Positions 45,648 to 62,287 of a stretch of DNA of 64,000 nucleotides are shown piece by piece. Positions within the stretch are counted from its first letter, which is position 1. Each line of letters opens with the position of its first letter. The stretch comes from Escherichia phage SKA64, in the sequence record OM362897.1; one strand, 5' to 3'. A program made the position numbers and the translations under genes. A model generated the notes under the pieces. It had not been told where the DNA came from and ran no database searches. It saw only the letters and a program-made list of their open reading frames with translations.

Positions 45648-46097
45648 TCATGATTGAGTTCCTTTTTGTTTTTCAATAGCTGCACGAATTTCTGCTAAAG
45701 GCTCTGCTACCAGATCTTCAACTTCTTGGATTTGTTCATTCATTACGTCACGAACCATTTGAATCCGCTCTTCAAGGGAAACAGCAAGTTCATCTGCATA
45801 AGCCATATTAAGAACGTGGTAGAAATTTTCTTGTGCACTTAAAGCACCAGATAACAAATAATCCTGATCTTCCTCTGGTAAAAGCATGTGTTGCTCATAT
45901 TCAGCAAAAGTGTTTTTGTTAATCTCAAGCAAAGCACCCATCATAACATCATACTGATAATCTTTATGACCAGGGTTGTTTAAAATAACATCTTCAAAGA
46001 TATTAAGAAGAATCTTAGTAACAAAAGCATTGTTTTCGGCACCTTCCATCTGACGGATTACCGTGATTACTTCTTTTTCTTTAGCGTTTTGGCTCAT
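45648..46097 (-). CDS. hypothetical protein
   Basis: 149-aa ORF. Confidence 0.35.
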   Translation of the reverse strand: MSQNAKEKEVITVIRQMEGAENNAFVTKILLNIFEDVILNNPGHKDYQYDVMMGALLEINKNTFAEYEQHMLLPEEDQDYLLSGALSAQENFYHVLNMAYADELAVSLEERIQMVRDVMNEQIQEVEDLVAEPLAEIRAAIEKQKGTQS

Positions 46098-47291
46098 AGT
46101 GTTTCTCCTCTGATTCTATTTGGATATAACCTGTGGTTTTGCACGGGTTACACTCGTAAATTTGACCTACATCCGCCATAACATATCCTGCACCACCACA
46201 ATAGGGGCAAGACATAGGAGGACAAGGTATGGACGTAGTGATTGTTACGACATTATCAATTTTCAACATTTTCGCCATTATTACCATTCCGCTATTAACG
46301 TCAAACCAAGTGCATCGTTAAAACGCTCAACATTTGAGTATAGGTATGGAGGGGTTATTTGCTCTAAAATTTGTGCTGCTTCCACTTGGTGCTCTATGTT
46401 TTGAGAAGTTCGGGCATAAACTAAGACACCCATTTTATTCAAAATAAAAACAGAATCAGACCCATCCAGCTTATCAACGGCTGCATACATTTTAGTCATA
46501 TCTTCTCCTGGATTACCATTCAGCAACAAGACTAGGATTCATAGCAAAAGCTTTGAAAGTTGTTATATCATGACTAACATTAAAACTAACACCTTTTACT
46601 TTCTCTAGTATTTGAACTTTCGTCTCTCCGTCCCACGGTAGGATGATAACACCATCTTCTGTGATCAACCACCAATGGTTCTCTCCATCTCGTGAATCTT
46701 TTGCTTTGTATAGAAAATTGGAACTCATTCTTCCTCCTGTTCGGTATTATTCACTTGTGAGACACAATGTAACACAAGCTTTGTGAGTTTGTCAAGGATC
46801 TAATTACATTCTACAGAAGAAGAGGGTTAATAACTATAGGAATAGTCTTACTATAGGTGCAATACTAGTTAAGAGTTAGATTGATAGGTAAGATTTATCT
46901 TAAACAGATAATTGATAGGTGAATCAGCATTGACTTTTTCAAAAAAATATGGTACCCTAAACATATGTTTACGAGCGATAGCGAGTAGTAGATTTCTATA
47001 TAATAATGTTTCATGTTACTCACGATAGTGAGGTATGAAACGTAAGTGAAGGTAGATAAACTATGATCATCTATCTACCATCTATTAATCAATATAGATC
47101 TAATGTTAGACTAACAGTTATCCAACAAACAATAGCAGTCCATATAACAAGTAATGATCTACAAACTACATCCCATTCAAATACATTGTATGTTAACCAT
47201 TCTCCCATCACAACAGAAGAACCCAACCAACATCCAACAACAACTATAATCCAATAAAAGAATCCTACAGTAGAGTATACAGCAAAAGCTT

Positions 47292-47711
47292 TTAACATCT
47301 TTCCTCCAGAAGTTGTTCAACAGTTTGACGAGTATGATTGTCCCAGTAAACCTTAGTGAAGTCAAGAGTTCCTTGTTCGTTTCTCTTAGTTTCGAAGAAG
47401 TATCCACCTTCTCTTTCTACTCTGTCTCTAATGTGCTCTATGAGATGCTTTTTACAAGGCGCTGATAAACAATAGTCATACTCCCCACGAAGCAATGCTA
47501 TAGCTGCAAGTCTGTTATCCCCAACTTGAGATATTGTCCAAGAAAGCATACTACCTTCTATACCTAAAGGTGTTTGTTTAATTGAATATCCACCATACCG
47601 ACTGATAGAAATTATGGCAAGTGGTTCTCCTGTTAGAGATCTTCCTAATGCACCTTCTGTTGGACTTCCTTCAACAATACGTTTGAAAAAAGCTTTGATC
47701 TTACCTAACAT
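47292..47711 (-). CDS. hypothetical protein
   Basis: 139-aa ORF. Confidence 0.35.
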   Translation of the reverse strand: MLGKIKAFFKRIVEGSPTEGALGRSLTGEPLAIISISRYGGYSIKQTPLGIEGSMLSWTISQVGDNRLAAIALLRGEYDYCLSAPCKKHLIEHIRDRVEREGGYFFETKRNEQGTLDFTKVYWDNHTRQTVEQLLEERC

Positions 47712-48045
47712 AAGTCCCCCTTAAAAATTTACTTGTTTAAAGTATCTCTTACTTGTTCTGCTTGACGTTTAGTAATAAAAGTCCCAACCGAAACGTTAAA
47801 CTCATTGACTACAGAGAACGATCCATCACGGTTCTCACGAATATTAAACAATTTCTTACTCATTTCTACCTCCTTCAATGCTTTGTGCCGTACCATCCCA
47901 AGCCATTAGAATGTTTTCCAATAGTTCACGAGGCTCTTTAAACCAAACTTCCATTTCATCAAGAATCTCGTCCGTGTCGTAAGTATAACCTGGAACACCA
48001 AGTTCACATTTCTTAAGATAGCTTTCTAACCAGCGGTGATAATTC

Positions 48046-48432
48046 TTAACCCCATTCATACTGTGCTACCTTTTCTTTTACCCAATCTACACGATCTTTA
48101 TCATAATGTTGAGTGCCAAGGAAAAGACCATTGTGGAAACTTTCCTCACCGAAAGGATAAATTAGATCTAAACCATCTTCTTCAAACAACATTTTTAATC
48201 TGTTTGATGTAGATTTCTTAGTTTCTGAATTGTAGTTTGTGGTTATAAGCCAATCTTCCAAACAACGACACAAGCCTTGACGAGAATCCCAAGGAAAAAC
48301 ACAATCTCCGACAGGAGCTTGTTCCGCCCATTTCAACCAACCTTTAAAAAAGTTATACAATATGTAGTCTTCAGTGTAATACATTAGCGCCTCCTTTACA
48401 TATACAATAACACCCCGCAGAACGGGGTGCAA
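48046..48432 (-). CDS. hypothetical protein, paralog family A member
   Basis: Shares W...GLC-x-CL...YPF...R-x-x-WV pattern with five other ORFs in the block. Confidence 0.4.
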   Translation of the reverse strand: MHPVLRGVIVYVKEALMYYTEDYILYNFFKGWLKWAEQAPVGDCVFPWDSRQGLCRCLEDWLITTNYNSETKKSTSNRLKMLFEEDGLDLIYPFGEESFHNGLFLGTQHYDKDRVDWVKEKVAQYEWG

Positions 48433-48435
48433 CTG

Positions 48436-49047
48436 TTATTTAATCTGTTTGAAAATTTCGTTTGGAACAGTACCGTTTAAAATACCTTCTACGATCTCCT
48501 GTGCAGACGTGTAAGAGAGTCCAAAAGAAGCTACGCCTAAAATTGCCTCCTTCAAAGGATCTGGCAGGGGTTCAAAGTTACCTGCAACAAAGCCACCTGC
48601 ACAAGCAGCGCCTTCATCATCCCAGAAAACAACTGCTACATCGTTACCATGCGAAGTCGTGCGATGTGCAATAACTTCAACTTCGGTGCCTTCTTTAGGA
48701 ACAGAATAAGAACTGTCCCAAGAATATCTTTCCAAATCAGGAACAAAGATAACCTTTTCACCTACTGGCGGCAGTTCACAACGATAATACCAAGAATTTT
48801 TTTCGTTCATTGTTTTATTTTCCTCCACGTCTTCAAAAGTAACGATCCAATCGTAGCCGTAAGAAAACGGATATTTTAGATCTAAAGAATAAGTTTGACC
48901 CAGATCGTCCTCAACAAGAACCATCCTATCAAAGTTTGCGATGTTAGGATTATGTTTAATGACAGGGTATGTTTCCCCTACAGTAAATTGTCCCAAATGG
49001 TAAAGTTCATCTCTCCAAGTAATTTGGATATGAGTGCATTGAATCAT
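48436..49047 (-). CDS. hypothetical protein
   Basis: 203-aa ORF. Confidence 0.4.
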   Translation of the reverse strand: MIQCTHIQITWRDELYHLGQFTVGETYPVIKHNPNIANFDRMVLVEDDLGQTYSLDLKYPFSYGYDWIVTFEDVEENKTMNEKNSWYYRCELPPVGEKVIFVPDLERYSWDSSYSVPKEGTEVEVIAHRTTSHGNDVAVVFWDDEGAACAGGFVAGNFEPLPDPLKEAILGVASFGLSYTSAQEIVEGILNGTVPNEIFKQIK

Positions 49048-49323
49048 AAAATCACCCCCAAGAAATATTTATATATCTTACAATGTTTGCACTGTCTAAA
49101 GCCATGTTTGCACCACACCCACGCTCGCGCCAGTAACTAACAATACCTTCACAGATACTCTCTTGTATCTTCTTATCACTTGGCATTTCTAGTATAAGAT
49201 TTGGGTTATGGATGTTTATGTTATAATATCCTTCCTCTGCGGCTTGAGCTACCAATTTACTTACTTTTTCAAAGTACGGGGAATTAGTGGCATCTGCTAT
49301 TGTTTTTAAGGTTTGTCTATCCA

Positions 49324-49722
49324 TTATTCTGCCTCATCATAGAAGAAATCCAACTCTTGTTCCAGTTGTTTAACTCGATCCTTAACCCACTGTACACGTT
49401 TTTCATTAAACATGCAACGTTTTTCCTTACACTCTTGCTCAAAAGATTTTGCTGTGTTAAATGGGAAAGTTGTATCTAAGCCAGCGTTTTCAAAACTGGC
49501 TAATTGCATACCATAAACAGAATATGCTAAAGAATGCTCGGCCCGAAATTCATCACTTATATACATACGTAGACCTCGGCATAAGCCAACATCAGCGTAA
49601 CCACTTTCTCTTGGAAAGAGACGGAGGTGTTCTAACCAATTATTATAGAAATCTAAAAGAATCCTCTTACACTTCAAATCGATTGTCATAAAAAGTTTCT
49701 CCTTCATCGAACAAGTTGGCAA
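49324..49722 (-). CDS. hypothetical protein, paralog family A member
   Basis: FYNNWL...GLCRGL...AGLD..FPFN...RVQWVKDRV. Confidence 0.4.
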   Translation of the reverse strand: MPTCSMKEKLFMTIDLKCKRILLDFYNNWLEHLRLFPRESGYADVGLCRGLRMYISDEFRAEHSLAYSVYGMQLASFENAGLDTTFPFNTAKSFEQECKEKRCMFNEKRVQWVKDRVKQLEQELDFFYDEAE

Positions 49723-50089
49723 GATTGTTCACGGCAATCTGGGTGGAAAGAAGACAACTGTTTGCAGACACATAAGCACGAGCTATTTTGTAAACATAGG
49801 CTTTCGTATTACAATTGTCTAGGATCGGAAGACTTTCGTCGATAGCATCTATAACACTAAACATCACATCTAAAACTTTAATGGTGAGTGTTGTATTTGT
49901 ATCTTCGTAACCTTTTTCAATCCGACCTGAATAGAAAGCATAGTCCTCAACAGTTCGTCGTTTAAACTGGCGCATAAAATCGGAACCATCTGTAGCAGAA
50001 TTGAACAAATTTTCAAAAAATACGTCCCATCCGGCAAAAAGGGCTGACAGCATGATTAAGTGATCTACAGATTCATTTTCTTGTTTCAT
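49667..50089 (-). CDS. hypothetical protein
   Basis: 140-aa ORF. Confidence 0.35.
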   Translation of the reverse strand: MKQENESVDHLIMLSALFAGWDVFFENLFNSATDGSDFMRQFKRRTVEDYAFYSGRIEKGYEDTNTTLTIKVLDVMFSVIDAIDESLPILDNCNTKAYVYKIARAYVSANSCLLSTQIAVNNLANLFDEGETFYDNRFEV

Positions 50090-50097
50090 ATCCTCTC

Positions 50098-50775
50098 CTA
50101 TTTAATGTTCAGTCTGGCACACAAACGAGAAACAGTTTTAGCATCCCATTTACCACCACGTGCTGTTGCTATTTTCTTACTATTGAATTTTTCAGCAATA
50201 GTTTTGTAAGGTGTATTTAAATCTCTAAGGATCTCCAAGCGTTCACGGAATGTCTCTGCAAAAGCGTCTGCTTTAACAGAGTTGTATTCCATTTTTCCTT
50301 TTCTACGTGCAGCGGCAGTTTTAGGATTAGCACTGCCTAATAAAACACCTTTGCTTTTTGCTACAGCAAGACCCTTTTTAATACGATCAGCAATACCTCT
50401 AACTTCTTGTTCAGCCAGAACAGACAGAAGCTGTATAACCATTTTATCTGCGTCTGGCATAATGGCTATCTTAACATCGATCATTTCTAGAAGAGTTGCT
50501 ACGGAGGCGTTATTACGACCCAAGCGGTCAACTTTAGCTACCAATAAAGTTGCTCCGGTAGCTTTACACATTTCAACCGCTTTAACCAGTTCCTTACGTT
50601 GCTTCCAATCGCCCTTACCCGAATAGTATTCAGAAAATTGACCAATAACTTCCGCATCAGGCACAGAGTCTAAGAAGTAACGGATATCATTCTCTTGGCT
50701 CTCCATACCATATTGTGCCTCACCTTTTTTCTGTTTAGAAAGACGACTGTAAACAACAAACTTTTTCATAACCAC
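50098..50775 (-). CDS. small serine recombinase (resolvase/invertase family)
   Basis: VVYSRLS (catalytic Ser region), LLVAKVDRLGRN, LLSVLAEQEVRGIADRIKKGL, C-terminal HTH-like region. 225 aa. Confidence 0.65.
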   Translation of the reverse strand: MVMKKFVVYSRLSKQKKGEAQYGMESQENDIRYFLDSVPDAEVIGQFSEYYSGKGDWKQRKELVKAVEMCKATGATLLVAKVDRLGRNNASVATLLEMIDVKIAIMPDADKMVIQLLSVLAEQEVRGIADRIKKGLAVAKSKGVLLGSANPKTAAARRKGKMEYNSVKADAFAETFRERLEILRDLNTPYKTIAEKFNSKKIATARGGKWDAKTVSRLCARLNIK

Positions 50776-51052
50776 TCCTAAACCATTGCTGTATTCTCAC
50801 TTTACAAAACGAATAAACACTTGTCAAGGTATTTATTATTTACAGCCATTCTACTCTTAAGCAGTATTCCTCGACATGTTGTTTACGCTTGTTTTTGTCT
50901 ATGTAAGTGTATTCAACAAATGTCCCAAGATAGTCCTTGTCTACAGTGTGTGGGCTATTGATTGGACATTTAGTACGACAAACCCGTTGCCACTGACGAA
51001 GAATTACGGCTTTGTTTTTAGGATCAAATGGATGAGGGTAATGTACCTTCAT

Positions 51053-51376
51053 TCACGCCCCCTGTTTTAGTCGAAAAATATTTTGAATAACTAGAGATGT
51101 ATAGTTATCACCTAGTCCCATAAGTTCTACTTCCAAGTTTCTAATATCTTCCACCGTAGGAGGATATGTTGGTAAAAATGCTTGAGCATTGCCAGATCCA
51201 ACCTCATTGCTGTAAGCAGTTGTAAAATTGTAAGATACAAAACATGAAACACCTTTTTGTCGGTACCCGATTAATCGACGAATACACCAGATAAGAGCTA
51301 AACCTATGAGAACACCTCCTAAACCAGCTAACAAGAAGGATAAGTTCATAATAGCTTCGTTAACAACTGCTTGCAT
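51053..51376 (-). CDS. hypothetical membrane protein
   Basis: 107-aa ORF with hydrophobic N-terminal segment NLSFLLAGLGGVLIGLALIW. Confidence 0.35.
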   Translation of the reverse strand: MQAVVNEAIMNLSFLLAGLGGVLIGLALIWCIRRLIGYRQKGVSCFVSYNFTTAYSNEVGSGNAQAFLPTYPPTVEDIRNLEVELMGLGDNYTSLVIQNIFRLKQGA

Positions 51377-51696
51377 TCTTTTCTCCTTAGTTATGTAAAC
51401 CCAAATGCGCTACAACTTCCCTACGATAAGATAACTGCATAGCGATTTTATAGCCAGGATGAAAACCATTTACATCAATGTCATCAAACCAAACCTCAAA
51501 CGAACCGTGCTTAAGGGTCATTAAGTTGATATACCATTCGATAGTATAATGATCGTTAGCAATACCTTCGATGTAAAACTCTCGGCAACAATGAGATAAA
51601 TCTTCACTTGTTTCACGTTTCCAGTCTTTGATAGCACCCTTCTCTTTAGCTTTATTCAGAATGTGGATCAGGTCTTCAACTTGCATATTCTCTCCT

Positions 51697-52251
51697 TTAG
51701 TTCCAACTAATAATGATGTGTTTGATAATCCCAAAAACACTGTGCTCTGCGGTTGCCAATGTTACATCCAAACCTTTTGCACGTAGCATTGTAGCTACAA
51801 CATTTGCCCCTCTTTTCTGCTCACTTATCTGTTCATAAGAAGAAGGGTTATTGCACAAACCAAAACTGGAAGGTTCAAAGTATTTTTCAAACTTCCCTTG
51901 TTCCGCACAATCTTCAATCTCTAATAGAACGGCGTCTACCATTTCAGTAAAATGGGAATTTGCTTGCAGTGCTTTATTACGCAGTTTATCACGTAAACTT
52001 CCCGTAGATTCTTCCTGCTCTTCTGTCTGTCCATCTTCACAGAAAGGATGAAGTTCAGCCCAGTCCCAAGCATCTCCTTCTAAAGCAAATGGAGTGTTGT
52101 AATTGAAGAAAGTGCAGCGCGGATATTCCCCGTTGAAAGAATCTTTCAGCAGAATATATTTCTTACCGTTTGCATGGAAGAGTTCTCCTTTGATAACCTT
52201 ACCTACAAGGATATCACTGTTAGTGGAACGGGTGCAAATAAATTTTTTCAT
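51697..52251 (-). CDS. hypothetical protein
   Basis: 184-aa ORF. Confidence 0.35.
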   Translation of the reverse strand: MKKFICTRSTNSDILVGKVIKGELFHANGKKYILLKDSFNGEYPRCTFFNYNTPFALEGDAWDWAELHPFCEDGQTEEQEESTGSLRDKLRNKALQANSHFTEMVDAVLLEIEDCAEQGKFEKYFEPSSFGLCNNPSSYEQISEQKRGANVVATMLRAKGLDVTLATAEHSVFGIIKHIIISWN

Positions 52252-52758
52252 GATTTTCTCCTCTTTGTTTCGATGAGATGATTATGACAAAGACAGATCC
52301 TTCTGTCAACTATTTATTTCCATTCCCCTTGGTGTTCTTTGATCTCATAAGAGTAGTATTCGAACATGCTCATACAAACCACACCAGACATTTCTAAACA
52401 AAGAGGTTTACTATTATAAAAGGCACTTATCATTCTTCCAGCTTTATCTGCTGACTCTTTAGTATCACATCCGCAAACTGTTCTCACCCAAGGATTAGGG
52501 CCATCATACTTAAGACGCACAATCCACATGATCATTCTTCCATCTCAAACCATTCAGGGAACACTTTGCGGAAGACCCGCGTGTTTTCTAAGAGAAATTC
52601 CAACTCTTTTTCCAAATCTGCGTTCCAACCGTTTATTTTAACACGGATTGCCAATGCACTTGCACGGCGACTCAATTCTTGACAGATTGGATCACGCAGA
52701 ACTATTGAGTCATAAAACTGACAAACAGCCTCAAGTTCATACCAGTTATAATCTGACA

Positions 52759-53085
52759 TTATTCATCCTCCTCTGCAATACGATCTCTTACCCAATTAAT
52801 CCTGTCCACGTTCAGGTGACATACCTCTGCATCTGATTCTAAGACATATGCATCGTAGTTCTCATTGAAAGGGAGTGCTTGACTCAACCCTTTATAGTGG
52901 AACTGCGCGTGCATTTCATCTGATAAGGTCGTTATAATGGGGTTGTAATTGCCTCTGTGCACATAGTCGAATAAGTTGGCACACAAACCGCAATCCCGCC
53001 GAAAAGGTTTACCATCAGGAGCACCAACATCAATCCATGCTAGATAAATTTTATAAAACTCTATCAACCTTGCGCTTGTTTTCAT
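52759..53085 (-). CDS. hypothetical protein, paralog family A member
   Basis: FYKIYLAW...CGLCANL...KGLSQALPFN...RINWVRDRI. Confidence 0.4.
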   Translation of the reverse strand: MKTSARLIEFYKIYLAWIDVGAPDGKPFRRDCGLCANLFDYVHRGNYNPIITTLSDEMHAQFHYKGLSQALPFNENYDAYVLESDAEVCHLNVDRINWVRDRIAEEDE

Positions 53086-53582
53086 TTAGCCACCTCGTTA
53101 GTTTTTCTTGCTCTTTGTTTGCGCGTTCTAAGCTTCTGAACTTTAAACAGAGGGAACGAGAATCCCTACCCATGCACAAGCTTTCATCTAAGCTGTGCTC
53201 CCCAACCAACCAAAGAGAGTATGTTTGAACATCTAACCCATAGTTTCTGTCTTTCCATAATCTCACCCCAAGAACATCAAAAGGAGCTTCCGTGACTAAA
53301 GAAAGAAACCGATCTTTATTCATATTACACCACCTTACTCACGTTGATAATGTATGTATACCATACATAAAATAAATGTCAAGGCTTATCGACACAGATA
53401 GTTGTAACGATCTGCTTTATCCTCTGCTTCAGCAAAGTCAGCAATCAAGGAAGTTTTAAGTTCTTCCAACTCTTTCACCCAAGAGTCGTAATCGTCCTGT
53501 GTTTCTCCAATAGTTTGGAGAAAACAATCGTCGTAGCCAATAGACATGGCTAACTCGATAATACGTTCCAGTTTTTCTTCCA

Positions 53583-54065
53583 TCACTTCTCTCCTTCTAC
53601 AGACTTCTGTTTAACATAAAAGTAAGCACCACGGGCAAGATACAAATCATGTTCAATATCGCTCACAGGAAAACCATCTGGATTTTTAAAACCATCTTCT
53701 ACAGCCAAAATGAGAGATCGTAAACTGATAGCTAACAACTCCATTTGATCTTGTAGTTTTCTATTTTCTGCGTAAAGGTTTTTGCATTTTTGTTCTGCAT
53801 TTTTCCATTGTTCTAATGCATGATCATAGCGGTGCATAAGAATAGCTTTTTCTTGTTCACGCTTAAAAGTTTCTTCGCAAATGAAACCTGTGCCTAAACC
53901 AGTTTCTTCGTCTTTGACAAACACTTCAACAAAATCTTTAGACATATTATCTCCTATTTGCTTTCGGATACTCCCAACCCTCTGGGAGATCTTCTTTACA
54001 CATCCACTCAAAAGGCCAGCGACAATAACTGTGCCACTTTCCATTGAGATACAAACAATCTTCAT
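53583..54065 (-). CDS. hypothetical protein
   Basis: 160-aa ORF with a charged helical C-terminal half. Confidence 0.35.
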   Translation of the reverse strand: MKIVCISMESGTVIVAGLLSGCVKKISQRVGSIRKQIGDNMSKDFVEVFVKDEETGLGTGFICEETFKREQEKAILMHRYDHALEQWKNAEQKCKNLYAENRKLQDQMELLAISLRSLILAVEDGFKNPDGFPVSDIEHDLYLARGAYFYVKQKSVEGEK

Positions 54066-54214
54066 CTATTGGTCCACAAGGGTTGATAACTACAACACAC
54101 CCTTTTGCTCGCCAATATTGAACTATTTCAGGGTAAAAACAAGAAACGTCGGTCCACTCCCAAATACGTTCATCATTCAAACGGTATGCTGCTGGCAATG
54201 TCTCTTTCATATTA

Positions 54215-54661
54215 TTAAACCTCTGTCAAAGAGAAACGCCAATCCTTACTACTACCTACGCCAAGGAAGATATAGTCTCCGGTACTAACGGAAATACGCC
54301 AAGCGGGAATCCAATCAGGAATCTCTGGCTTATGGCTGTAACCATAACGATCACCATCCGAGTCTGTTGCAATATAATTAACAAATTCAGGAACATCTAA
54401 AGTTTCACCTTGATACTCTACACGCTTGAAGCCATCTTCCACTTCTTTCTCACCTTCTACCAGACAAGCAAGAAGTTTGATGTGAGGGCAAGTGAAATCT
54501 TGTCCTGGATAACGTGAACGGATATCGGTTAACAATGCGATCACAGCATCCGATAACTCTTTATAATCCTCATATCTTACAAATGTGCCTTCTGTCGGAT
54601 CATCAGGACACAAACGCCAAGCATCGTTGCAGTTTACAGCATAATGTCTCACTTTAGTCAT
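54215..54661 (-). CDS. hypothetical protein
   Basis: 148-aa ORF. Confidence 0.35.
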   Translation of the reverse strand: MTKVRHYAVNCNDAWRLCPDDPTEGTFVRYEDYKELSDAVIALLTDIRSRYPGQDFTCPHIKLLACLVEGEKEVEDGFKRVEYQGETLDVPEFVNYIATDSDGDRYGYSHKPEIPDWIPAWRISVSTGDYIFLGVGSSKDWRFSLTEV

Positions 54662-54670
54662 AAATCCCCC

Positions 54671-55069
54671 TTATCGTTGCGTACAATCAGCTTCTAGAGT
54701 AAGAACATTCGTTATTGTTTTATCATTTTTTAGAAATGCAAACCAAGCTAAAGTGTCTCGATACTCTGTGCGCATCATCACAACTTCAGTAGTGCCAATA
54801 AACTGTTGTGAACCGTACATAGCACTACCATCTTTACTTTTTTCTCCTGTGTGTTGCAGAATGCCACTCATCAAAGCACCACCTGAATTTTTAAGGATAA
54901 AGGAGTTATCTTTATTAATGACAACAGAAGCCATTTTCTTAGGACCAGAAATAACTTCACCTTTCAGATTTTTAACAACCACATCTGACACACACTCATA
55001 AACTTGAGACGCATTTGCTGTTCCAAGTGATGCAATGAGTAACAATAAACCTACGATGATCTTTTTCAT
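54671..55069 (-). CDS. hypothetical secreted protein with signal peptide
   Basis: MKKIIVGLLLLIASLGTANAS N-terminus. Confidence 0.4.
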   Translation of the reverse strand: MKKIIVGLLLLIASLGTANASQVYECVSDVVVKNLKGEVISGPKKMASVVINKDNSFILKNSGGALMSGILQHTGEKSKDGSAMYGSQQFIGTTEVVMMRTEYRDTLAWFAFLKNDKTITNVLTLEADCTQR

Positions 55070-55373
55070 ATAAACTCTCCTCTTTATTTACCCGACGCGC
55101 CCCTGTTGGGCGGAAAGGGTTGTACGCAAAATTTTTAGCTCCAATCGTCGGGTGTCCCGACTCCTTACGCTTTTAATGTTTTAACAGAATGACAAGCTTT
55201 GCAAACCATAACCGGAACAAGTTCGTCTCCACTATCCGCATAAATCACTGTTTTCTTCATTCTGCCACCACATGAACAATACTCTGTATGATCCACTGGA
55301 ATATTAAATATTCCGTAATCACTTTCATACTGTTTCTTACATATGGACACTGCTTTTGTAAAACAAGACATAC

Positions 55374-55595
55374 CTACTCCGAAAGAACATTCACTTCATC
55401 AGAGAAAAATACGTAATCACAACCTTCCCAAACATCTTCTTCAAACCACTCCCATCCCTCAACTTTGGACATTTCTTCTATCGTAACAAAGAATGTTGTC
55501 ATGTCATCGCTAACAAGATGTGCTTCAACAACAAAAGGAATCTGAACATTCTCAAAACCAACATAACCCAATACATCACAAACTCTAATTTTCAT
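55374..55595 (-). CDS. hypothetical protein, paralog family B member
   Basis: MKIRV...EGWEWFEEDVWEGCDYVFF, paralogous to 58970-59200. Confidence 0.35.
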   Translation of the reverse strand: MKIRVCDVLGYVGFENVQIPFVVEAHLVSDDMTTFFVTIEEMSKVEGWEWFEEDVWEGCDYVFFSDEVNVLSE

Positions 55596-55990
55596 ATTAT
55601 GCTCCTTTGTAGATTATGTTGGTGCGTTCACACTCTGCTACCAGCAAGCGATTAGCAATGTTATCCATAGGAACATTAATCTCTACACTCCAGGCATTGA
55701 TACACACTTCTTCAATCTTTGCTCCCAACATTTGTGCGATCAGGGCAACAGCCCCAGCATATTCAAGTTTAATCTCAATTACCATTTTGCACCTCAAGGT
55801 TATTTATCTTGCTTGTATCTTACAAGGCGATCACACTCTAGGTCAAGAAATTTCTCCGCATTTCGTTCATGTTTGAGCACAATACATTGTTCTTTCCAGT
55901 CTGTAGCTCTTTGCTGCGCTGCTCCTGGGTCAAAATCCCAAAGCCATGCCGCGAAAAGAACAACCATAACAATCACTAAGAAACTAAACA

Positions 55991-56305
55991 CTATTGGCAT
56001 TGCACATCCTCCTGTGTAGCATGGTCTTTTACCCATTTTATACGGGCAGCATTCAAATGCAATAGCCCGTTTCTTTGTGCAAAATCATATTTAAACCAGT
56101 CTCCGTCATCAAACGGGTATTCTTCAGACAATCCTGCCTCACGGAATTGCATTTGCATTTCATAATTTAGATCATCATAACCTCCAGTCCAAAGGTAGAG
56201 GCAACTACATAATCCTTTATCATGCCAGAAAGGATTATTATCTGGAGCACCAGCTAACAGCCAGTTATGATATGCTTGATAAAATTCTTTAAGTTCTTCT
56301 GACAT
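55991..56305 (-). CDS. hypothetical protein, paralog family A member
   Basis: FYQAYHNWL...KGLCSCL...AGLSEEYPFD...RIKWVKDH. Confidence 0.4.
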   Translation of the reverse strand: MSEELKEFYQAYHNWLLAGAPDNNPFWHDKGLCSCLYLWTGGYDDLNYEMQMQFREAGLSEEYPFDDGDWFKYDFAQRNGLLHLNAARIKWVKDHATQEDVQCQ

Positions 56306-57357
56306 TTAACCTCCTGTGTACAGGGTTGAAAGATACACAGCAAAAGCATTCTCGGCTGTTTTCACCTCCTCTTCAAGATCTTCACGCTCTGCTGGCGTTA
56401 ATGCATTCCGCACAGCAGCGTCTGCTTCTCGGATTTTTCTTACTAAACGTGAAACATCTTTCAATTGTTGAAAAGTAGCCATAATCTTTCTCCTGTTTTA
56501 GTGAGTATCACGCCATTCGGCAATCTCTTCGGCTAAACGATCACAAGAATCGAAAGCCACTTTACCTTTAGTCTGATTTTCATATCGCACTTCCTTCAAT
56601 GCGAGTAATGCATTCACCAGATTATCAACACCTTGATCATCCAGTGCGATAACATCGAAGTTAAACCCTGTGTCAGTTGGGACTTTACGTTTTATGGTGT
56701 AATAGTCCCCTTCATGACGTTCAACATACACGTATGGGTAACTGCTGTTCGGATCATGTTTTACGCGAATAGATGTTTTCATGTTTTGTTCTCCTCTTTA
56801 GTCAAACCAGTTGTATTCAGAAGGGTAACGAGCGTAGTTTGGCTTATACCCCAACCTTTTCATCTTAACAGACATACGAGTGAAGCCAAAGGTTGTTTTG
56901 CCCTTAGACATAAACTTCTTCCCGCTCTTCATTGGCTTCTTAGGGTTTTTGATCGTCTGGTGTAACGCTCGCGCAAGCCACAAAGTGTATGCGCTCGGCA
57001 CTTGATTAACTTTCATCTTGTTACCTTTCATCATTTCACCTCGGACCAATCAATAGTGATCCACTCGTATGCCCCGTTCAGATCCATTTCTTTATAAACA
57101 ATAAGCCCACGCTCACGAAGAATTGCTACTGCTTCATCCATCCACTTCACCTGATTGTAGATCTGCTCTGGGTGGGTGGGAGAATTATTCAGACCAAAAT
57201 CAGATGGCGTGAAATTTCTTGAAGAGTTTCCCGCTCGTGCTTCAGCAAAACATGTCTCGATCACTTCTTCAACAGGGAAGTTGAAGGAAGCTTCTTTTGC
57301 AATACGGCGTAACTGTTCGGTCAGATTCATCTTATTCTCCTTTCGTTGTGCGAAACA

Positions 57358-57861
57358 TTATAACAGATCTAATGCTTTCAACTCTTCTTTCAATGATTCA
57401 GGCAGGTCACATTCAATGTCAATCAGAGATAACAAGTGACCAACAATGCCTTCCAGATGTTGATACTCACTATAACTTATAAATTCAGAATTGTAAACAG
57501 AAACATCCTTAGTTTCTTTCACAACTTCCCCCGCAGACACGCACATAAAAAAGTTACGCTCTCCGCGAGCTAACAATATCTCCCAACTCCTGAACGGATA
57601 CTGTCCAGCTTCAATAATATCCCCGCTGTCCAATAAAGTCAATGAGCAAACAGACCCTGATTCACTAACATCCTCGACGCGGAAACAAGACCCTTCAATC
57701 AAAGCTGCCATTTTGAAATTTTCATCAGAGATCATAGAGAAAGCTTCACAGGCAGCTTTACTTTTGAAACAATAAACAGCATTAACTTTAAACATAACAT
57801 TCCCCTTTTTAAACAAAAGATACGCCGATGGTAGCAACAACCAAACGTTTATAAACTTCAA
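57358..57861 (-). CDS. hypothetical protein
   Basis: 167-aa ORF. Confidence 0.35.
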   Translation of the reverse strand: MKFINVWLLLPSAYLLFKKGNVMFKVNAVYCFKSKAACEAFSMISDENFKMAALIEGSCFRVEDVSESGSVCSLTLLDSGDIIEAGQYPFRSWEILLARGERNFFMCVSAGEVVKETKDVSVYNSEFISYSEYQHLEGIVGHLLSLIDIECDLPESLKEELKALDLL

Positions 57862-58267
57862 CCTCTTCTGTAGGATTAGACATTTTATGCTCTGCTGCCT
57901 CTTTCAAAGCTTCTTCATAACTTTCAAATCCAGAAATACAGGTGTCATCAGTCATTACAACATACCACTCTTCTTTTGTTGTATCAACAGGTTCTTCTTG
58001 TGGTTTTCCACGACCACCACGAACACCACCGTCAACAAAATAATCTATATGAGCAGAATTGATTATGTAACGATCCCCATCACCAGCAGTGATAATACCG
58101 TCTCTCATACCTATTACAACCATTGACAAGATATTACCATTTGCATCAGTGCTCAACACCTCGAAAAAATTCTCTCCAATGATAGCAGCAATACTGTTAT
58201 CAAAGGTAGAATATAATCGCATATAATCCTCATCCTGGAAACGGTAGACATGACCTTCTTTAAACAT
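57809..58267 (-). CDS. hypothetical protein
   Basis: 152-aa ORF. Confidence 0.35.
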   Translation of the reverse strand: MFKEGHVYRFQDEDYMRLYSTFDNSIAAIIGENFFEVLSTDANGNILSMVVIGMRDGIITAGDGDRYIINSAHIDYFVDGGVRGGRGKPQEEPVDTTKEEWYVVMTDDTCISGFESYEEALKEAAEHKMSNPTEEVEVYKRLVVATIGVSFV

Positions 58268-58721
58268 TGTTCTCTCCTCCTAACTCATCATACCATTTCA
58301 AAGCGTCTTTTGGAAGCATACCAAAATCTTCTTTTAGTTCTTTTTCAATCTCTTCTTGCATTTCCATCAGCGTTTTCAGTTGACGGACTTTTTTGTGCAT
58401 AGCCACATTCCTTTCATTAAGGTTTGTCACTACATTATTTGCACGACTCGGTGGAAATGACAAAGGTTTCACGGGAAGATAATCTTCGATATTATCTAGT
58501 GCGTTACGAAAATTATGATCCAAGAAACGCACATCTACACGATTGTAATCGGCAGCTACAACAGTGAACACTTTAAACGGCACATTGGATAAAGTATGTT
58601 GCACATAGACAGTACCCATATTGCCTTCAATTTTACTATTAACTTCCAGCAAACCTGTATGAGCACTAACATAATCGTGAACACATTGCACATAAGCTGC
58701 CAGTATAGTGAATTGTCTCAT
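58260..58721 (-). CDS. hypothetical protein
   Basis: 153-aa ORF. Confidence 0.35.
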   Translation of the reverse strand: MRQFTILAAYVQCVHDYVSAHTGLLEVNSKIEGNMGTVYVQHTLSNVPFKVFTVVAADYNRVDVRFLDHNFRNALDNIEDYLPVKPLSFPPSRANNVVTNLNERNVAMHKKVRQLKTLMEMQEEIEKELKEDFGMLPKDALKWYDELGGENNV

Positions 58722-58969
58722 TTTCTACCTCCCCATAATGCTAACATTTTATTGAAAATGGAAACGCGTCGTGCGCGAGATGCCATATCATAATTCATTC
58801 TTTCCGTCCCTGCAAGAAATTGATCTACTGTAATCAACGCTTTTGTCTTCTCTTTCAGAGTTTGCATATTCATCCATTCACATTCAGAGTACCAATTATC
58901 GAAATACAAACTATCAAGAAGATCCATTGCTGCTTCGTTCTGCTGTGGTGTGATCATTGCACACTACCT

Positions 58970-59200
58970 TTAATAGACAATGTTATATTCGTGAGGAAAG
59001 AAAACATAATCTTCCCCTTCTCGTGCATCTATCTCGTCCCAAAACCATTCCTGCACTTCCATCATCTTCGAGAATCGCACATGAGCAAGCCCACTGTATT
59101 CCACCGTAGCTTCCAGCACAAGTGGAAATTTTGCATGTGCCAATCCTTTATAACCACCATCATTCTCAATACGAATTTTCATGCGTTTCATATTATGCAT
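58970..59200 (-). CDS. hypothetical protein, paralog family B member
   Basis: MKIRI...VQEWFWDEIDAREGEDYVFF, paralogous to 55374-55595. Confidence 0.35.
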   Translation of the reverse strand: MHNMKRMKIRIENDGGYKGLAHAKFPLVLEATVEYSGLAHVRFSKMMEVQEWFWDEIDAREGEDYVFFPHEYNIVY

Positions 59201-59461
59201 CCTTCAAACCCTTAATAAAGTAACGACCAACCGGATTCCCTCGGAAGTATTCGTTAATGAAATCGATAACACACGTTTCACTGCCTGTCACAACGGACGG
59301 TGCGAAGTTTCGGAACTGCACGAGTACACGACTTGCGTTAGCAAGGGTGTGCACACGATCAGTGTTAGCTAAATACAAGGATACAGTTTTCATATTTGAC
59401 ATTTCAATCTCCTCATTGGCTATCTGTTATGCGCGGTATGCAAACCACTATACAGACATTT

Positions 59462-59830
59462 TTATTCAATGCAAGCATTATTTGCATCTTCAATTCTGTC
59501 TTTCACCCATTGAAGACGTAACGTGTTGGTATGACACGCCAAGTTTATACACTCTGAAAGGTAATCCATGCAATCTGCATTGAACGGAAGATTGTAGTCC
59601 AGCCCTGCACATGTAAATTGTTTCCTCATTTCATATTTCAAGCGGTCCAACAAACTATCCCGCCATCTTCTATCTTCTTCTCTAGTTGTCTCACCAACAA
59701 AATCATTTACATAATCTACCAGACAACCACATAAGCCACTCGTTGTGCGATTCATTGCAGGATAGTTGGCAATCCATGCTTTATAGAAGCGAAGCAATGT
59801 TGCACTGCTCAACGGAATACTATTTGTCAT
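59462..59830 (-). CDS. hypothetical protein, paralog family A member
   Basis: FYKAWIANY...SGLCGCL...AGLDYNLPFN...RLQWVKDRI. Confidence 0.4.
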   Translation of the reverse strand: MTNSIPLSSATLLRFYKAWIANYPAMNRTTSGLCGCLVDYVNDFVGETTREEDRRWRDSLLDRLKYEMRKQFTCAGLDYNLPFNADCMDYLSECINLACHTNTLRLQWVKDRIEDANNACIE

Positions 59831-60164
59831 TTTTCTCTCCTTCGTAATCTTGAATTCTATCTAGCACCCATTGTATACGATGTTTGTTTTTATGGCAAAT
59901 ATGTTTTTTATGTTCGAAGGTGTATTCTTCATAACCACCTTCATTAAACGGGAAATTGTAATCCAATCCTGCACCAATAAACTGTGATTTCATCTCCTGT
60001 TGTAGACGAGGTAACAGTTCATCAGGATATGTTCCCTCTACATACTTAATCAAACATATACACAAGCCACTCGTTGTGTGACCTTCTACCTCACCAGCAA
60101 GCCAAGCTTTGTAAAACTTCATTAGACGTAAACTACTCAACGGAACATTTTTACTCTCTTGCAT
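59820..60164 (-). CDS. hypothetical protein, paralog family A member
   Basis: FYKAWLAGE...SGLCICL...AGLDYNFPFN...RIQWVLDRI. Tandem with 59462-59830. Confidence 0.4.
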   Translation of the reverse strand: MQESKNVPLSSLRLMKFYKAWLAGEVEGHTTSGLCICLIKYVEGTYPDELLPRLQQEMKSQFIGAGLDYNFPFNEGGYEEYTFEHKKHICHKNKHRIQWVLDRIQDYEGEKNDK

Positions 60165-61727
60165 GATAATCTCCTCTCATCGTTAGCCATCTTTCATGGC
60201 AATCATCAATCACCAACATCATACGATCAATCTTAGGGAATTACAATCGAATTATCATAGGGGATTCCTATCAATTATCCCATATATACCGATTATTTTT
60301 GACACCCCACTCTTGTATAAAAAGTAACCCAAAATATCTACGGGGAGAGATTATTTCGGGACACCCTGTTTCATGGCAATCATGGCAAGAATATCTAATA
60401 GAATCAATATCATATGGCAAAAATCATGGCGCATACGTAAGAAGTGCTTAACGCGAATTTTCGGGCCGTCAGGTCCACGCAGCGACAATTCCCAAATATC
60501 ATGAGAATGAGAATAATTATCATTCGTATTCAATGACTTATGCAAGGCTTATGCCAACGTAGCGACAAGGTGGGCCACTTGATTATAAATCACACAAACA
60601 CTTATTTATCAATGGTTTGGCAACCTCATCATATGACGGAACAATGTCAACTGATCCCGCTCATGACAAGCAGACTATTATTTATATGAGAATGATTATT
60701 ATTTAAACGTTTATTAGCATAAAAACTAAAATAAATCAAGAATTTTCTGATTTTATTTACGTTTAAGAGAAGATGCTCAACATATCGCTACGCGATAGTA
60801 TTCGCCCCCGAAAGATTAGCCTTTATTTTCTTGTATGTTTATACGCTATGTGCACACTATGCAACCTGTCGCTATTCGCTCATGTTGCTACGTGCTAATA
60901 CTTCACCGTGCTAATGATCTTTGAGCGATAGCGATTATTTCATCTTGTAATTACCACAATGATTATTGTTATTGCGCTAATGTTATGATCTTGGTAATTA
61001 CATATAATGCTAATAATAAGCCAGCGCAATAAGTGTAAGCGTATTACGCTTGCAATTATTGCAAGCTACGCAGTAACAAGAAATAACCATCACCGATGGT
61101 TATGATTGTTGGGGTGTAGTTGGCTTATTATTAGCTCGCTATGTGTCCGGCATAGCGTGCTAATGATGACTCTGTGAATGATTCGTTTTGTAATGATTTC
61201 ATTTAGTCACTATTATGGCAATAGTTATTATTTTAATGGTTTCGTTTGTTATTGTTCGTTAGTTGGTTGTTTTGTCGTGTTATCGTTATCTTGCTTAGTA
61301 TTCATCATGGTTTGATTGTTTGTTGTTATCAATCATCTTGCTATTATTCCTTTGATTATGATTAGTTTGCTTATTGTTTTATGTTGTTTGTTGGTTAGTT
61401 GTTGCGAACTATTATCAACATTATAGTTATGCACTTATATTGCATAGATAAACATGGATAGATGATAATGGTTATCATTGCACTAGAAAGGAGGTAAAAG
61501 GGTGTTTTTGATGGTTTGTTGTTGGTTGTTGATCGATTTTAACCGCTTTAAATGGCTCTCTAACAGCCTGTTACCCTGGGAGGTATGGTTATTCATTTAA
61601 TGGTTGATTAGCTCGATACCGCGATCTATTCAGTTTTGTTCTGTGTCGGTTTTTCATAGGCGGAATCTATCAACATTATTCAGGCAAAAAGAAAGGGCGC
61701 TTAGTGCGCCCCTTGTTTTGTTGTCAA
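60165..61727. repeat. about 1.5-kb non-coding region with short repeats, palindromes and a GT-skewed tract
   Basis: No ORF of 60 aa or more except one doubtful 64-aa ORF. Repeats TTTCATGGCAATCAT (x2), GTGCTAATGAT (x2), GCGATAG-like motifs; palindromes at 61037-61064; GT-rich 61200-61440. Confidence 0.5.
61693..61714 (-). terminator. hairpin terminator candidate downstream of 61728-62147
   Basis: GGGCGC-TTAGT-GCGCCC flanked by A/T runs. Same sequence recurs at 62260-62276. Confidence 0.45.
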
Positions 61728-62147
61728 TTATAACGCTTCATAGATTGAGTAGATCCGGTTCGCCAGGTCATTACGAAAGCGGAATTTTTCATCACGTTTA
61801 ATCATCAGATCCTTAAAACCGCATTCTTTCAAGGCTTCATTAACTTTACTGCGGCATACTTTCATATTGTCCTGCGCGTCACCAATAAACTTATTGCTAT
61901 GATGCATTGCTTTGATCTCTTCCTCTAATACCAGGGCAACTACACGGACCGGATCAAGCTGATATGCGGTAACATCCATGCGGCATTGTAAACGGCTTTT
62001 AACATCGTTTACCGGATATACTGCAACCTCTTCCCCGTCAACGTTCACGATAACCAATTTACCATCGATTTCGAAGCCTTTGGCGGCGCTACCGTGACAA
62101 AAAGCGTTATCGAAGGAGTAAGCTGGATTATTTGATTTAATGTTCAT
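61728..62147 (-). CDS. hypothetical protein (GC-richer module)
   Basis: 139-aa ORF. Visibly higher G+C than the rest of the window. Confidence 0.4.
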   Translation of the reverse strand: MNIKSNNPAYSFDNAFCHGSAAKGFEIDGKLVIVNVDGEEVAVYPVNDVKSRLQCRMDVTAYQLDPVRVVALVLEEEIKAMHHSNKFIGDAQDNMKVCRSKVNEALKECGFKDLMIKRDEKFRFRNDLANRIYSIYEAL

Positions 62148-62257
62148 GATGTTGTCCTTTGTTTCGTTTCGTTGTTTGCTGCCAGTGAGTTAAATATAAT
62201 ATAACGCCGATCCCCTGTCAATAGGGGATAGCGCATTATTTACATTTCTTTACGTTA

Positions 62258-62279
62258 AAGGGCGCTTAGTGCGCCCCTT
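62258..62279 (-). terminator. hairpin terminator candidate downstream of 62288-62655
   Basis: Second copy of GGGCGC-TTAGT-GCGCCC, directly after the gene's stop. Confidence 0.45.
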
Positions 62280-62287
62280 GTATAATC

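What the first reader, a model, noticed from the sequence alone, without database searches (positions are those of the whole stretch)
48046..60164. Six-member paralogous gene family spread across the minus-strand block
ORFs at 48046-48432, 49324-49722, 52759-53085, 55991-56305, 59462-59830 and 59820-60164 share an ordered pattern: FY-x-x-W(L/I), then GLC-x-CL, then (A/K)GL(D/S)...(Y/F)PF(N/D), then a C-terminal R(I/V/L)-x-WV-x-D(R/H). The sequence between these blocks is divergent. The two most upstream copies are tandem. Rapidly diversifying multi-copy families in phages often encode host-takeover or anti-defence proteins. I do not recognise this family.
Basis: seen in the sequence. Interest (0 to 1): 0.65.

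Follow-up and report, generated by a model that had tools for sequence, protein, structure and literature searches.

The report
Six-copy uncharacterized early phage protein family
The six genes are real, anciently diverged copies of a widespread but functionally unknown family of small helical phage proteins (it includes gp3 of phage N4). They sit in the accessory, probably early-expressed end of a phAPEC8-like E. coli phage genome and are conserved rather than rapidly diversifying.

Summary
Six minus-strand genes (104-122 aa) are homologous: leave-one-out HMM E-values are 1e-16 to 1e-29, and no other ORF in the window scores below 0.03.

The window is a Phapecoctavirus, the reverse complement of about the first 62 kb of phAPEC8. 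The family is already catalogued as PHROG 2510 and pVOG VOG7392, both of unknown function. It has no Pfam, NCBIfam or PADLOC model and no PDB sequence match.

"Rapidly diversifying" is not supported. Orthologues are under purifying selection (pN/pS 0.10, against 0.15 for neighbouring genes). Four of the six copies are closer to homologues from elsewhere than to each other. Only the tandem pair is a local duplication.

Function is untested. My best inference is dispensable, early, host-directed dimer-forming modules built around a conserved Cys/Arg site.

The parts
59820..60164 (-). Copy 1 (114 aa; orthologue of phAPEC8 gp18). First gene after the 1.5-kb non-coding region and upstream member of the tandem pair.
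   Evidence: ORF. ATG with GAGGAG Shine-Dalgarno sequence. phrog_2510 E 5.6e-26. Leave-one-out HMM E 3.8e-29. pN/pS 0.03.
59462..59830 (-). Copy 2 (122 aa; orthologue of phAPEC8 gp19). Overlaps copy 1 by 11 nt and carries a long insert between helices 2 and 3.
   Evidence: 45% identical to copy 1 (E 1e-29). pN/pS 0.16. Has the most 90%-identity sequence clusters among the retrieved homologues: 23, against 3-9 for the other copies.
55991..56305 (-). Copy 3 (104 aa; orthologue of phAPEC8 gp30).
   Evidence: AGGAGG Shine-Dalgarno sequence. pN/pS 0.02.
52759..53085 (-). Copy 4 (108 aa; orthologue of phAPEC8 gp41). The copy closest to the family consensus, and the one whose structure was modelled.
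   Evidence: phrog_2510 E 6.7e-31. AlphaFold pLDDT 94.1, pTM 0.86, five helices. pN/pS 0.21.
49324..49689 (-). Copy 5 (121 aa from the ATG at 49689; orthologue of phAPEC8 gp51).
   Evidence: Relatives annotate 366 nt. Exact 121-aa protein is in the public collection. pN/pS 0.04.
48046..48384 (-). Copy 6 (112 aa from the ATG at 48384; orthologue of phAPEC8 gp54). The most divergent copy.
   Evidence: AAGGAGG Shine-Dalgarno sequence before the ATG. Hairpin at 48430-48410 lies inside the extension. Relatives annotate 339 nt. pN/pS 0.13.
60165..61691 (-). 1.5-kb AT-rich non-coding region upstream of the tandem pair. It follows a strong terminator at 61714-61692 and is the likely promoter/leader region of the transcription unit that starts with copy 1.
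   Evidence: No annotated CDS here in relatives. No Rfam match. Sigma-70-like sites at 60379-60350 and 60246-60218, though the number of such sites in the scanned region (45000-64000) is not above chance. Several GenBank relatives have their record end at about window 60540-60780.

Best explanation
The six genes are anciently diverged paralogues of a large, almost exclusively viral family of single-domain proteins of about 100 aa (PHROG 2510 / pVOG VOG7392; includes gp3 of an N4-like phage).

Shown:
- Each is a real, translated-looking gene under purifying selection.
- Each encodes a compact five-helix domain with no solved structural relative.
- The family has a near-invariant core: Phe10, Tyr11, Trp17, Gly33-Leu34-Cys35, Phe62, Pro72-Phe73, Asn92, Arg95, Trp98-Val99 (numbering of the 52759 copy).
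- The copies lie only in the block of small accessory genes at one end of the genome.
- Copy number differs between near-identical phages (6 or 7).
- Elsewhere the domain occurs as fused tandem repeats, and fused to DUF551 or to a dATP/dGTP pyrophosphohydrolase.

Inferred:
- The proteins are made early from the leading end of the genome and act on host components (takeover or counter-defence) rather than in virion or replisome assembly.
- They work as homo- or hetero-dimers. The tandem pair and the natural two-domain fusions point to this.
- The conserved Cys/Arg-centred core provides a common scaffold or pocket, and the divergent surfaces and the variable loop between helices 2 and 3 give each paralogue its own target.
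For: Real genes and real family.

Purifying selection on every copy: pooled pN/pS 0.098.

Ancient subfamilies.

Accessory nature:
- phAPEC8 has 7 copies, all within 7.0-19.3 kb of its left-end block of about 70 small unnamed genes, and none elsewhere in its 148 kb.
- The window, ev052 and Ro121c4YLVW have 6 copies.

Early or accessory context in unrelated phages:
- The gp3 gene of the N4-like phage Jura matches at E 2.8e-18. It follows the terminator after gp1-gp2 and precedes the gene annotated RNAP1 (gp15/gp16 are the N4 RNAPII subunits), i.e. it lies in the equivalent of the N4 early region.
- Genes 002 and 003 lie in the first 1.5 kb of a T7-like Rhizobium phage.
- P0046 lies 2.5 kb from the end of a phage contig.
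- In a lambdoid prophage the gene sits in the nin-type region after the O/P/Ren-like genes.

Viral restriction:
- The same degenerate motif gave 58 true hits out of 61 in IMG/VR, but only 2 out of 14 in 596 Gb of representative bacterial genomes.
- The prophage-type domain is in 29 of 5,426 complete E. coli genomes.
- One phage-plasmid was the only hit among 72,556 plasmids.

Fold: pLDDT 94.1 for one domain.

Dimer inference:
- 20 two-domain proteins and 1 three-domain protein among the 179 proteins in hand.
- The two-domain protein P0046 is modelled at pLDDT 91.9 and pTM 0.79, which implies a fixed arrangement of the two domains.

Family-wide conservation.

Stand-alone module: no conserved partner gene across diverse loci.
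Against: - No experiment or characterised homologue supports any function. All database names are 'hypothetical' or 'uncharacterized', apart from one unsupported label.
- Early timing is inferred from position only. The number of sigma-70-like sites in the scanned region (45000-64000) is not above chance (61 found, 55 expected).
- 99-100% conservation of Cys35 and Arg95, with Asn92, Glu57 and Gln61 at 82-91%, would fit an enzyme or ligand pocket as well as a scaffold.
- The proteins are only mildly acidic (pI 4.5-6.2), so they do not look like DNA mimics.
- The dimer inference rests on pTM alone. No interface could be inspected.
Confidence: 0.45

Rival explanations
1. The domain is a small enzyme, or a binder of a small molecule, that uses the near-invariant cysteine at the N-terminus of helix 2 together with the invariant arginine. 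The paralogues would share one chemistry and differ in substrate or target, as the T4 Alt/ModA/ModB ADP-ribosyltransferase paralogues do.
For: - Across 171 domains at about 22% mean column identity, Cys35 is 99% conserved, Arg95 100%, Asn92 91%, Gln61 84%, Glu57 82% and His90 67%.
- The Cys sits in the first turn of a helix, after Gly. This is a common setting for reactive thiols (established knowledge).
- Four of the six window copies have C-x-C.
- Both domains of fused proteins keep the Cys and the Arg.
Against: - Helical periodicity places Cys35 (with Leu34, Leu38) and Arg95 (with Ile96, Val99) on the hydrophobic faces of their helices. They may therefore be packing or capping residues (my inference).
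- Ser4, Gly33 and Asn92 sit at helix N-cap positions.
- One prophage-derived member in an IMG/VR locus has GLH and one has CLT in place of GLC, and P0163 has GLK.
Confidence: 0.22
2. The proteins serve the phage's own DNA metabolism or gene regulation (for example as recombination, replication or transcription accessory factors) rather than targeting host defences.
For: - In a lambdoid prophage the gene lies in the nin-type region next to replication genes.
- Fusion to a dATP/dGTP pyrophosphohydrolase domain.
- Strong purifying selection.
Against: - Copy number varies between near-identical phages.
- Multiple divergent copies per genome are unusual for a core factor.
- The proteins are acidic, which argues against direct DNA binding.
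- No conserved partner gene.
Confidence: 0.18
3. They are DNA-mimic anti-restriction proteins of the Arn/Ocr/ArdA type. One public record labels an orthologue of the 59462 copy 'Anti-restriction nuclease'.
For: - The label on CAM6581850.1.
- Small, acidic, early-region proteins.
Against: - T4 Arn against the family profile: hhalign probability 0.07%. BLASTP finds no alignment.
- No PDB sequence hit at E up to 10, and no structural hit to Arn, Ocr or ArdA.
- Net charge is only -2 to -10, and pI 4.5-6.2.
- The conserved residues are aromatic, Cys and Arg, not acidic arrays.
Confidence: 0.05
4. The shared motifs are chance matches, or the ORFs are not genes.
For: None found.
Against: - Leave-one-out HMM E 1e-16 to 1e-29.
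- 1,767 homologous clusters.
- Shine-Dalgarno sequence plus ATG at all six.
- pN/pS about 0.1.
- Confident fold prediction.
Confidence: 0.01

Closest known systems
PHROG 2510 / pVOG VOG7392 (uncharacterized phage protein family; weaker matches to phrog_6418 and phrog_27059), including gp3 of an N4-like phage
   Same: All six copies match the phrog_2510 profile at E 1e-25 to 1e-31. Relatives carry the VOG7392 label. The gp3 gene of the N4-like phage Jura, which that record annotates by BLAST as the homologue of N4 gp3 (YP_950481), matches the family HMM at E 2.8e-18. Size and motif order are the same.
   Different: Nothing functional is known for the family, so membership names it without explaining it. 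Phapecoctaviruses carry 6-7 separate copies, whereas only one was seen in the N4-like locus examined. The phrog_2510 profile is 219 positions long and the window proteins match only about its first half. Two-domain fused members of the family exist, and these may account for the longer profile.
Small early accessory (host-takeover or anti-restriction) proteins of virulent phages, such as T4 Arn, T7 Ocr and T4 AsiA. This is an analogy of role only.
   Same: About 100 aa, mildly acidic, dispensable-looking, encoded among small genes at the genome end, and variable in copy number between relatives.
Modular accessory proteins of the lambdoid nin-type region (DUF551, PF04448; dATP/dGTP pyrophosphohydrolase, PF04447)
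   Same: The domain is found fused to these modules in prophage ORFs, downstream of O/P/Ren-like genes.
   Different: The window copies are stand-alone single domains in a virulent myovirus. The partner domains are absent from these six genes. DUF551 itself has no known function.
Atd1, the MazG-like anti-TIR protein reported from Phapecoctavirus
   Same: Same phage genus. Also a small protein proposed to act in counter-defence.

Membership tests
PHROG 2510 (unknown function) | Significant match to the family profile HMM over the whole domain | tested here: met
   All six match at E 1.5e-25 to 6.7e-31, covering profile positions about 4-113.
PHROG 2510 / VOG7392 family as defined here | Ordered conserved core: F-Y ... 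W ... G-L-C ... Q-F ... P-F ... N-x-x-R-x-x-W-V | tested here: met
   15 invariant columns among the six copies. The same columns are 87-100% conserved in 171 domains from elsewhere.
N4 gp3-like early proteins | Homology to gp3 of an N4-like phage | tested here: met
   The gp3 ORF of phage Jura (annotated by BLAST to N4 gp3, YP_950481) matches the family HMM at E 2.8e-18.
N4 gp3-like early proteins | Expression in the early period of infection | not testable with these tools
   Only positional inference is available. No transcriptome of a phapecoctavirus was found.
T4 Arn (anti-restriction nuclease) family | Sequence or profile similarity to Arn | tested here: not met
   hhalign probability 0.07%, E 0.71. 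BLASTP gives no alignment.
DNA-mimic anti-restriction proteins (Ocr, ArdA, Arn) | Strongly acidic surface and structural similarity to a solved mimic | tested here: not met
MazG-like pyrophosphatases (Atd1) | Match to MazG / NTP-pyrophosphohydrolase profiles | tested here: not met
   No Pfam hit for the six copies or for 117 members. PF04447 occurs only as a separate fused domain in one prophage ORF.
NinB/YbcN (E. coli DLP12 'base-flipping protein') | Sequence similarity to YbcN | tested here: not met
   Scanning the whole DLP12 region with both family HMMs gave no ORF below E 0.17.
Known anti-phage defence components (PADLOC) | Match to any PADLOC model | tested here: not met
   0 families at E up to 1.
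Thiol-dependent enzymes | Conserved nucleophilic Cys | tested here: inconclusive
   Cys35 is 99% conserved and lies in the first turn of a helix. However, it lies on the hydrophobic face, and no fold or sequence link to any enzyme was found.
Thiol-dependent enzymes | Catalytic activity | not testable with these tools
   Needs biochemistry.

The most novel reading that the evidence does not exclude
The family, including N4 gp3, may be an unrecognised class of early phage effectors with a new all-helical fold and a reactive Cys/Arg site. The six or seven paralogues in phapecoctaviruses would form homo- and hetero-dimers, each neutralising or modifying a different host factor or defence system.
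Probability: 0.2. Interest if true: 0.7.

Novelty: new member of a known kind. Interest (0 to 1): 0.4.

Why it matters
The family is large: at least 1,767 clusters at 50% identity. It is almost confined to phages of Proteobacteria, and it is present in model or well-used phages: an N4-like phage's gp3, phAPEC8-like therapeutic candidates, T7-like rhizobiophages, and the Burkholderia phage BcepSaruman. It has no Pfam model, no solved structure and no structural neighbour.

If its members are host-directed effectors, six or seven conserved, non-redundant paralogues in one genome would be a compact set of probes for host targets or defence systems. If not, the result still matters for annotation. 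It corrects the 'rapidly diversifying' reading, fixes two start codons, and links the hypothetical proteins encoded by phAPEC8 genes 18, 19, 30, 41, 44, 51 and 54 with the gp3 of an N4-like phage.

Tried and rejected
1. Pfam, NCBIfam and PADLOC scans of the six copies, and Pfam scans of 117 diverse members and of the fused forms: nothing for the domain itself.
2. PDB sequence searches with two profiles: only two RPN7 hits at E about 0.9, then none.
4. Atd1, the anti-TIR protein reported from Phapecoctavirus, looked like a lead. It is a MazG-like enzyme and unrelated.
5. From memory I suspected that E. coli YbcN (nin region, 'base-flipping protein') might be a member. It is not.
6. The single public label 'Anti-restriction nuclease' was tested against T4 Arn. 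There is no similarity.
7. Rapid diversification: rejected by pN/pS.
8. A recent lineage-specific expansion: rejected except for the tandem pair.
9. A conserved partner gene: none found across 58 viral loci.
10. The search for related loci with alignments failed because no stretch was conserved enough. The single-protein scan of bacterial genomes found nothing. A hand-made degenerate motif was used instead.
11. A second homologous-protein search with 117 sequences added little.
12. Literature searches on phrog_2510, YP_950481, N4 gp3, Phapecoctavirus with anti-defence or early genes, and CRISPRi-ART: no statement about this family.
13. Rfam and repeat scans of the upstream non-coding region: nothing notable.


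Full report
**1. What the window is**

The region 47-61 kb matches 124 phage records. Of these, 55 cover at least 80% of it, mostly at 95-99% identity. All of the best matches are Phapecoctavirus (Stephanstirmvirinae) myoviruses of E. coli, such as 536P1, Ro121c4YLVW, phAPEC8 and anhysbys.

Comparison with the annotated phAPEC8 genome shows that the window is the reverse complement of about its first 62 kb. The minus-strand block at 43-64 kb corresponds to the left-end run of about 70 small unnamed genes. The plus-strand block at 6-43 kb corresponds to nucleotide-metabolism and replication genes. The ten tRNA genes at 3.6-5.5 kb correspond to the phage's tRNA cluster.

**2. The observation**

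They align over their whole length, with 15 invariant columns and 26-31% identity to the first sequence. Pairwise BLASTP gives 23-45% identity.

The test that matters is the leave-one-out HMM. A profile built from five copies finds the sixth at E 1e-16 to 1e-29. The next best ORF, out of 674 six-frame ORFs in the window, scores E > 0.03. An all-vs-all BLASTP of the window's ORFs gives one six-member component. There are exactly six copies in the window.

Two 5' ends need correcting:
- The TTG-initiated extensions to 48432 and 49722 are not used by any annotated relative, which annotate 339 nt and 366 nt.
- The ATGs at 48384 and 49689 have good Shine-Dalgarno sequences.
- The resulting 112-aa and 121-aa proteins are exact entries in the public collection.
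- A terminator-like hairpin at 48430-48410 lies inside the first extension.

All six copies have a Shine-Dalgarno sequence followed by ATG.

**3. What the family is**

All six copies hit PHROG 2510 (unknown function) at E 1e-25 to 1e-31, with weaker hits to phrog_6418 and phrog_27059. The anhysbys record labels its copies pVOG VOG7392. Nothing is found in the other libraries:
- Pfam, NCBIfam and PADLOC give no hit for the six copies.
- A Pfam scan of 117 diverse members gives nothing consistent.
- The PDB sequence set gives nothing.

An exhaustive profile search of 1.84 billion cluster representatives finds 1,767 proteins at E up to 1e-3, and 797 at E up to 1e-10. Most are 100-130 aa. Of the 179 proteins in hand, 158 have one domain, 20 have two tandem domains and one has three.

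Every source name is 'hypothetical' or 'uncharacterized', with one exception: a single record labelled 'Anti-restriction nuclease'. I tested that label against T4 Arn. hhalign probability is 0.07% and BLASTP finds no alignment, so the label is unsupported.

**4. Structure**

AlphaFold2 on the 52759 copy, with a 41-sequence alignment, gives pLDDT 94.1 and pTM 0.86. The model is all-alpha, with helices at residues 5-19, 34-43, 50-64, 77-85 and 93-107.

**5. Conservation**

Over 171 domains from 50%-identity representatives, in the numbering of the 52759 copy:

| Residue(s) | Conservation |
|---|---|
| Pro72, Arg95 | 100% |
| Cys35, Phe73 | 99% |
| Gly33 | 96% |
| Leu34, Phe10, Trp17 | 95% |
| Tyr11, Trp98, Phe62 | 94% |
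| Asn92 | 91% |
| Val99 | 87% |
| Gln61 | 84% |
| Glu57 | 82% |
| His90 | 67% |

Mean column identity in a 117-sequence alignment is 22%.

Ser4, Gly33 and Asn92 sit at helix N-cap positions. By helical periodicity, Cys35 (with Leu34 and Leu38) and Arg95 (with Ile96 and Val99) fall on the hydrophobic faces of their helices. They may therefore be structural, but this is my inference. The alternative is that they form a catalytic or ligand site, and I could not settle this without model coordinates.

The main indel hot spot is the loop between helices 2 and 3.

**6. Is it rapidly diversifying?**

No. Nei-Gojobori counts against four other phapecoctaviruses give pooled pN/pS = 0.098 for the six copies, with a range of 0.02-0.21. 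The other 38 genes of the same block give 0.153. The fast-evolving genes in the block are others: 59193-59402 (77% amino-acid identity) and 58260-58721 (87.5%).

The copies are also old. For the 48046, 49324, 52759 and 55991 copies, the nearest paralogue in the window ranks only 27th to 46th among the sequences in hand. Only 59462 and 59820 are close relatives of each other.

One caveat applies. The 59462 type has by far the most 90%-identity clusters among the retrieved homologues: 23, against 3-9 for the others. Its variation is concentrated in the helix 2-helix 3 loop and around residues 83-101. This may partly reflect how the search samples sequences.

**7. Distribution and context**

phAPEC8 has seven copies (gp18, 19, 30, 41, 44, 51, 54). 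All lie between 7.0 and 19.3 kb, and there are none elsewhere in its 148 kb. Phage anhysbys also has seven. The window, ev052 and Ro121c4YLVW have six, lacking the gp44 type. Individual copies are therefore dispensable.

A single-sequence tblastn finds 257 phage records and 637 places, with up to 8 places per record. Contexts in other elements are:
- **N4-like phage Jura.** The hit is gp3, which that record annotates by BLAST as the homologue of N4 gp3. It matches the family HMM at E 2.8e-18. It follows the terminator after gp1-gp2 and precedes the gene annotated RNAP1, so it lies in the equivalent of the N4 early region (the early timing of gp3 itself is inferred from position).
- **T7-like Rhizobium phage.** A one-domain gene and a two-domain gene lie in the first 1.5 kb of the genome.
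- **P0046.** It lies 2.5 kb from the end of a phage contig, among small unknown genes.
- **Plasmids.** The only hit among 72,556 records is a 93-kb phage-plasmid.

A degenerate DNA motif for PFN...H-x-N-x-x-R-x-x-WV gave 61 matches in IMG/VR, of which 58 are true members. The same motif gave 14 matches in 596 Gb of representative bacterial and archaeal genomes, of which only 2 are true. Both of those lie on contigs of 717 bp or less from one assembly.

Some IMG/VR members look prophage-derived. There the domain is fused to PF04447 (dATP/dGTP pyrophosphohydrolase) or PF04448 (DUF551). In one lambdoid prophage the gene lies after the cII-like, O-like, DnaC-like and Ren-like genes, in a nin-type position. 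This prophage type is rare: 29 of 5,426 complete E. coli genomes.

No partner gene recurs across diverse loci.

**8. Transcription context in the window**

Copy 1 is the first gene after a 1.5-kb AT-rich non-coding stretch (60165-61691). That stretch follows a strong terminator at 61714-61692. Sigma-70-like sites exist just upstream of copy 1, at 60379-60350 and 60246-60218. However, the number of such sites in the scanned region (45000-64000) is not above chance (61 found, 55 expected), so they prove nothing. Several GenBank relatives end their records about 0.4-0.6 kb upstream of copy 1. Early expression is therefore an inference.

**9. Mechanism**

Shown:
- real genes under purifying selection;
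- a confident new-looking helical domain;
- a conserved core;
- accessory location and variable copy number;
- a nearly virus-only distribution;
- natural tandem fusions.

Inferred:
- early expression;
- action on host components;
- dimeric working unit;
- a common scaffold or pocket with paralogue-specific surfaces.

I give this 0.45. The main rivals are a Cys/Arg-dependent enzyme or ligand binder (0.22) and a role in the phage's own DNA metabolism or regulation (0.18). A DNA-mimic anti-restriction role is unlikely (0.05), and chance is excluded.

**10. Novelty and verdict**

The proteins themselves are in GenBank as hypothetical proteins, and the family is already clustered in PHROGs and pVOGs. 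I found no paper that discusses it.

New from this analysis:
- the link between the proteins encoded by phAPEC8 genes 18, 19, 30, 41, 44, 51 and 54 and the gp3 of an N4-like phage;
- the size and viral restriction of the family;
- the absence of any structural neighbour;
- the fused forms;
- the evidence that the copies are old and conserved.

This is a solid, moderately interesting lead for experiment. It is not a demonstrated new system.

Noticed in passing
window 55374-55595 (-) and 58970-59200 (-): A second paralogous pair of small proteins in the same block: 37.5% identity over 72 aa, E 1e-11.
   Followed up: no
window 51697-52251 (-) C-terminal half and 57031-57330 (-); possibly also 49052-49324 (-): A third paralogous set: 32% identity, E 3e-9. 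The third ORF shares the C-terminal '(I/N)I(S/D)W' ending by eye only. It lies directly downstream of family copy 5.
   Followed up: no
window 26982-27980 (+) and 29418-30266 (+): A weakly similar pair of larger plus-strand ORFs: 26% identity over 166 aa, E 1e-5.
   Followed up: no
window 59193-59402 (-) and 58260-58721 (-): These are the fast-evolving genes of the block. Against four close relatives they show 77% and 87.5% amino-acid identity, pN 0.126 and 0.061, and pN/pS 0.36-0.39. The block median is about 98% identity.
   Followed up: partly
window 50098-50775 (-): A serine recombinase/invertase (Gin-like) lies in the middle of the small-gene block. It is 100% conserved at the protein level in four relatives, with 40 synonymous and 0 non-synonymous differences. 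One relative mislabels it as 'Methionine ABC transporter ATP-binding protein'.
   Followed up: partly
window 60165-61691: A 1.5-kb AT-rich non-coding region with repeated TTTGNTNGTTTGTTGTT-like motifs and several short inverted repeats. It has no Rfam match and no tRNA. It is preceded on the minus strand by a strong terminator at 61714-61692. Several GenBank relatives place their record ends at about 60540-60780.
   Followed up: partly
window 52251-52314: This is the site where phAPEC8 and anhysbys carry a seventh family copy (gp44 type, 321 nt) that this window lacks. The 62-nt gap holds an 11-of-12 sigma-70-like site (52309-52281) and a small hairpin (52292-52307).
   Followed up: partly
window 3579-5501 (-): A cluster of ten tRNA genes: Met x2, Ile, Pro, Gln, Gly, Thr, Asn, Ser and Arg. 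It corresponds to the phAPEC8 tRNA cluster.
   Followed up: no
window 46281-46529 (-) and 46513-46728 (-): Two adjacent small ORFs both end in '(I/V)AEW'. They may be another tandem duplicate. No significant BLASTP hit was seen at E 1e-4.
   Followed up: no
L014 (Rhizobium phage RHph_N37) 257-706 and 787-1479; L010 1345-1767 and 2488-3156: In unrelated phages the family is also clustered. A one-domain gene is followed by a two-domain fused gene close to the genome or contig end.
   Followed up: partly
L047, L060, L068 (IMG/VR loci that look prophage-derived): A 274-residue ORF carries the family domain followed by a Cys-rich tail that looks like a zinc ribbon (CPTCG...CPHCG...CNHC...CMNC). It has no Pfam hit.
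   Followed up: no
public record CAM6581850.1 (cluster of the 59462 copy): This is the only functional name found for any member: 'Anti-restriction nuclease'. It appears to be an automated label. It is not supported by comparison with T4 Arn.
   Followed up: yes
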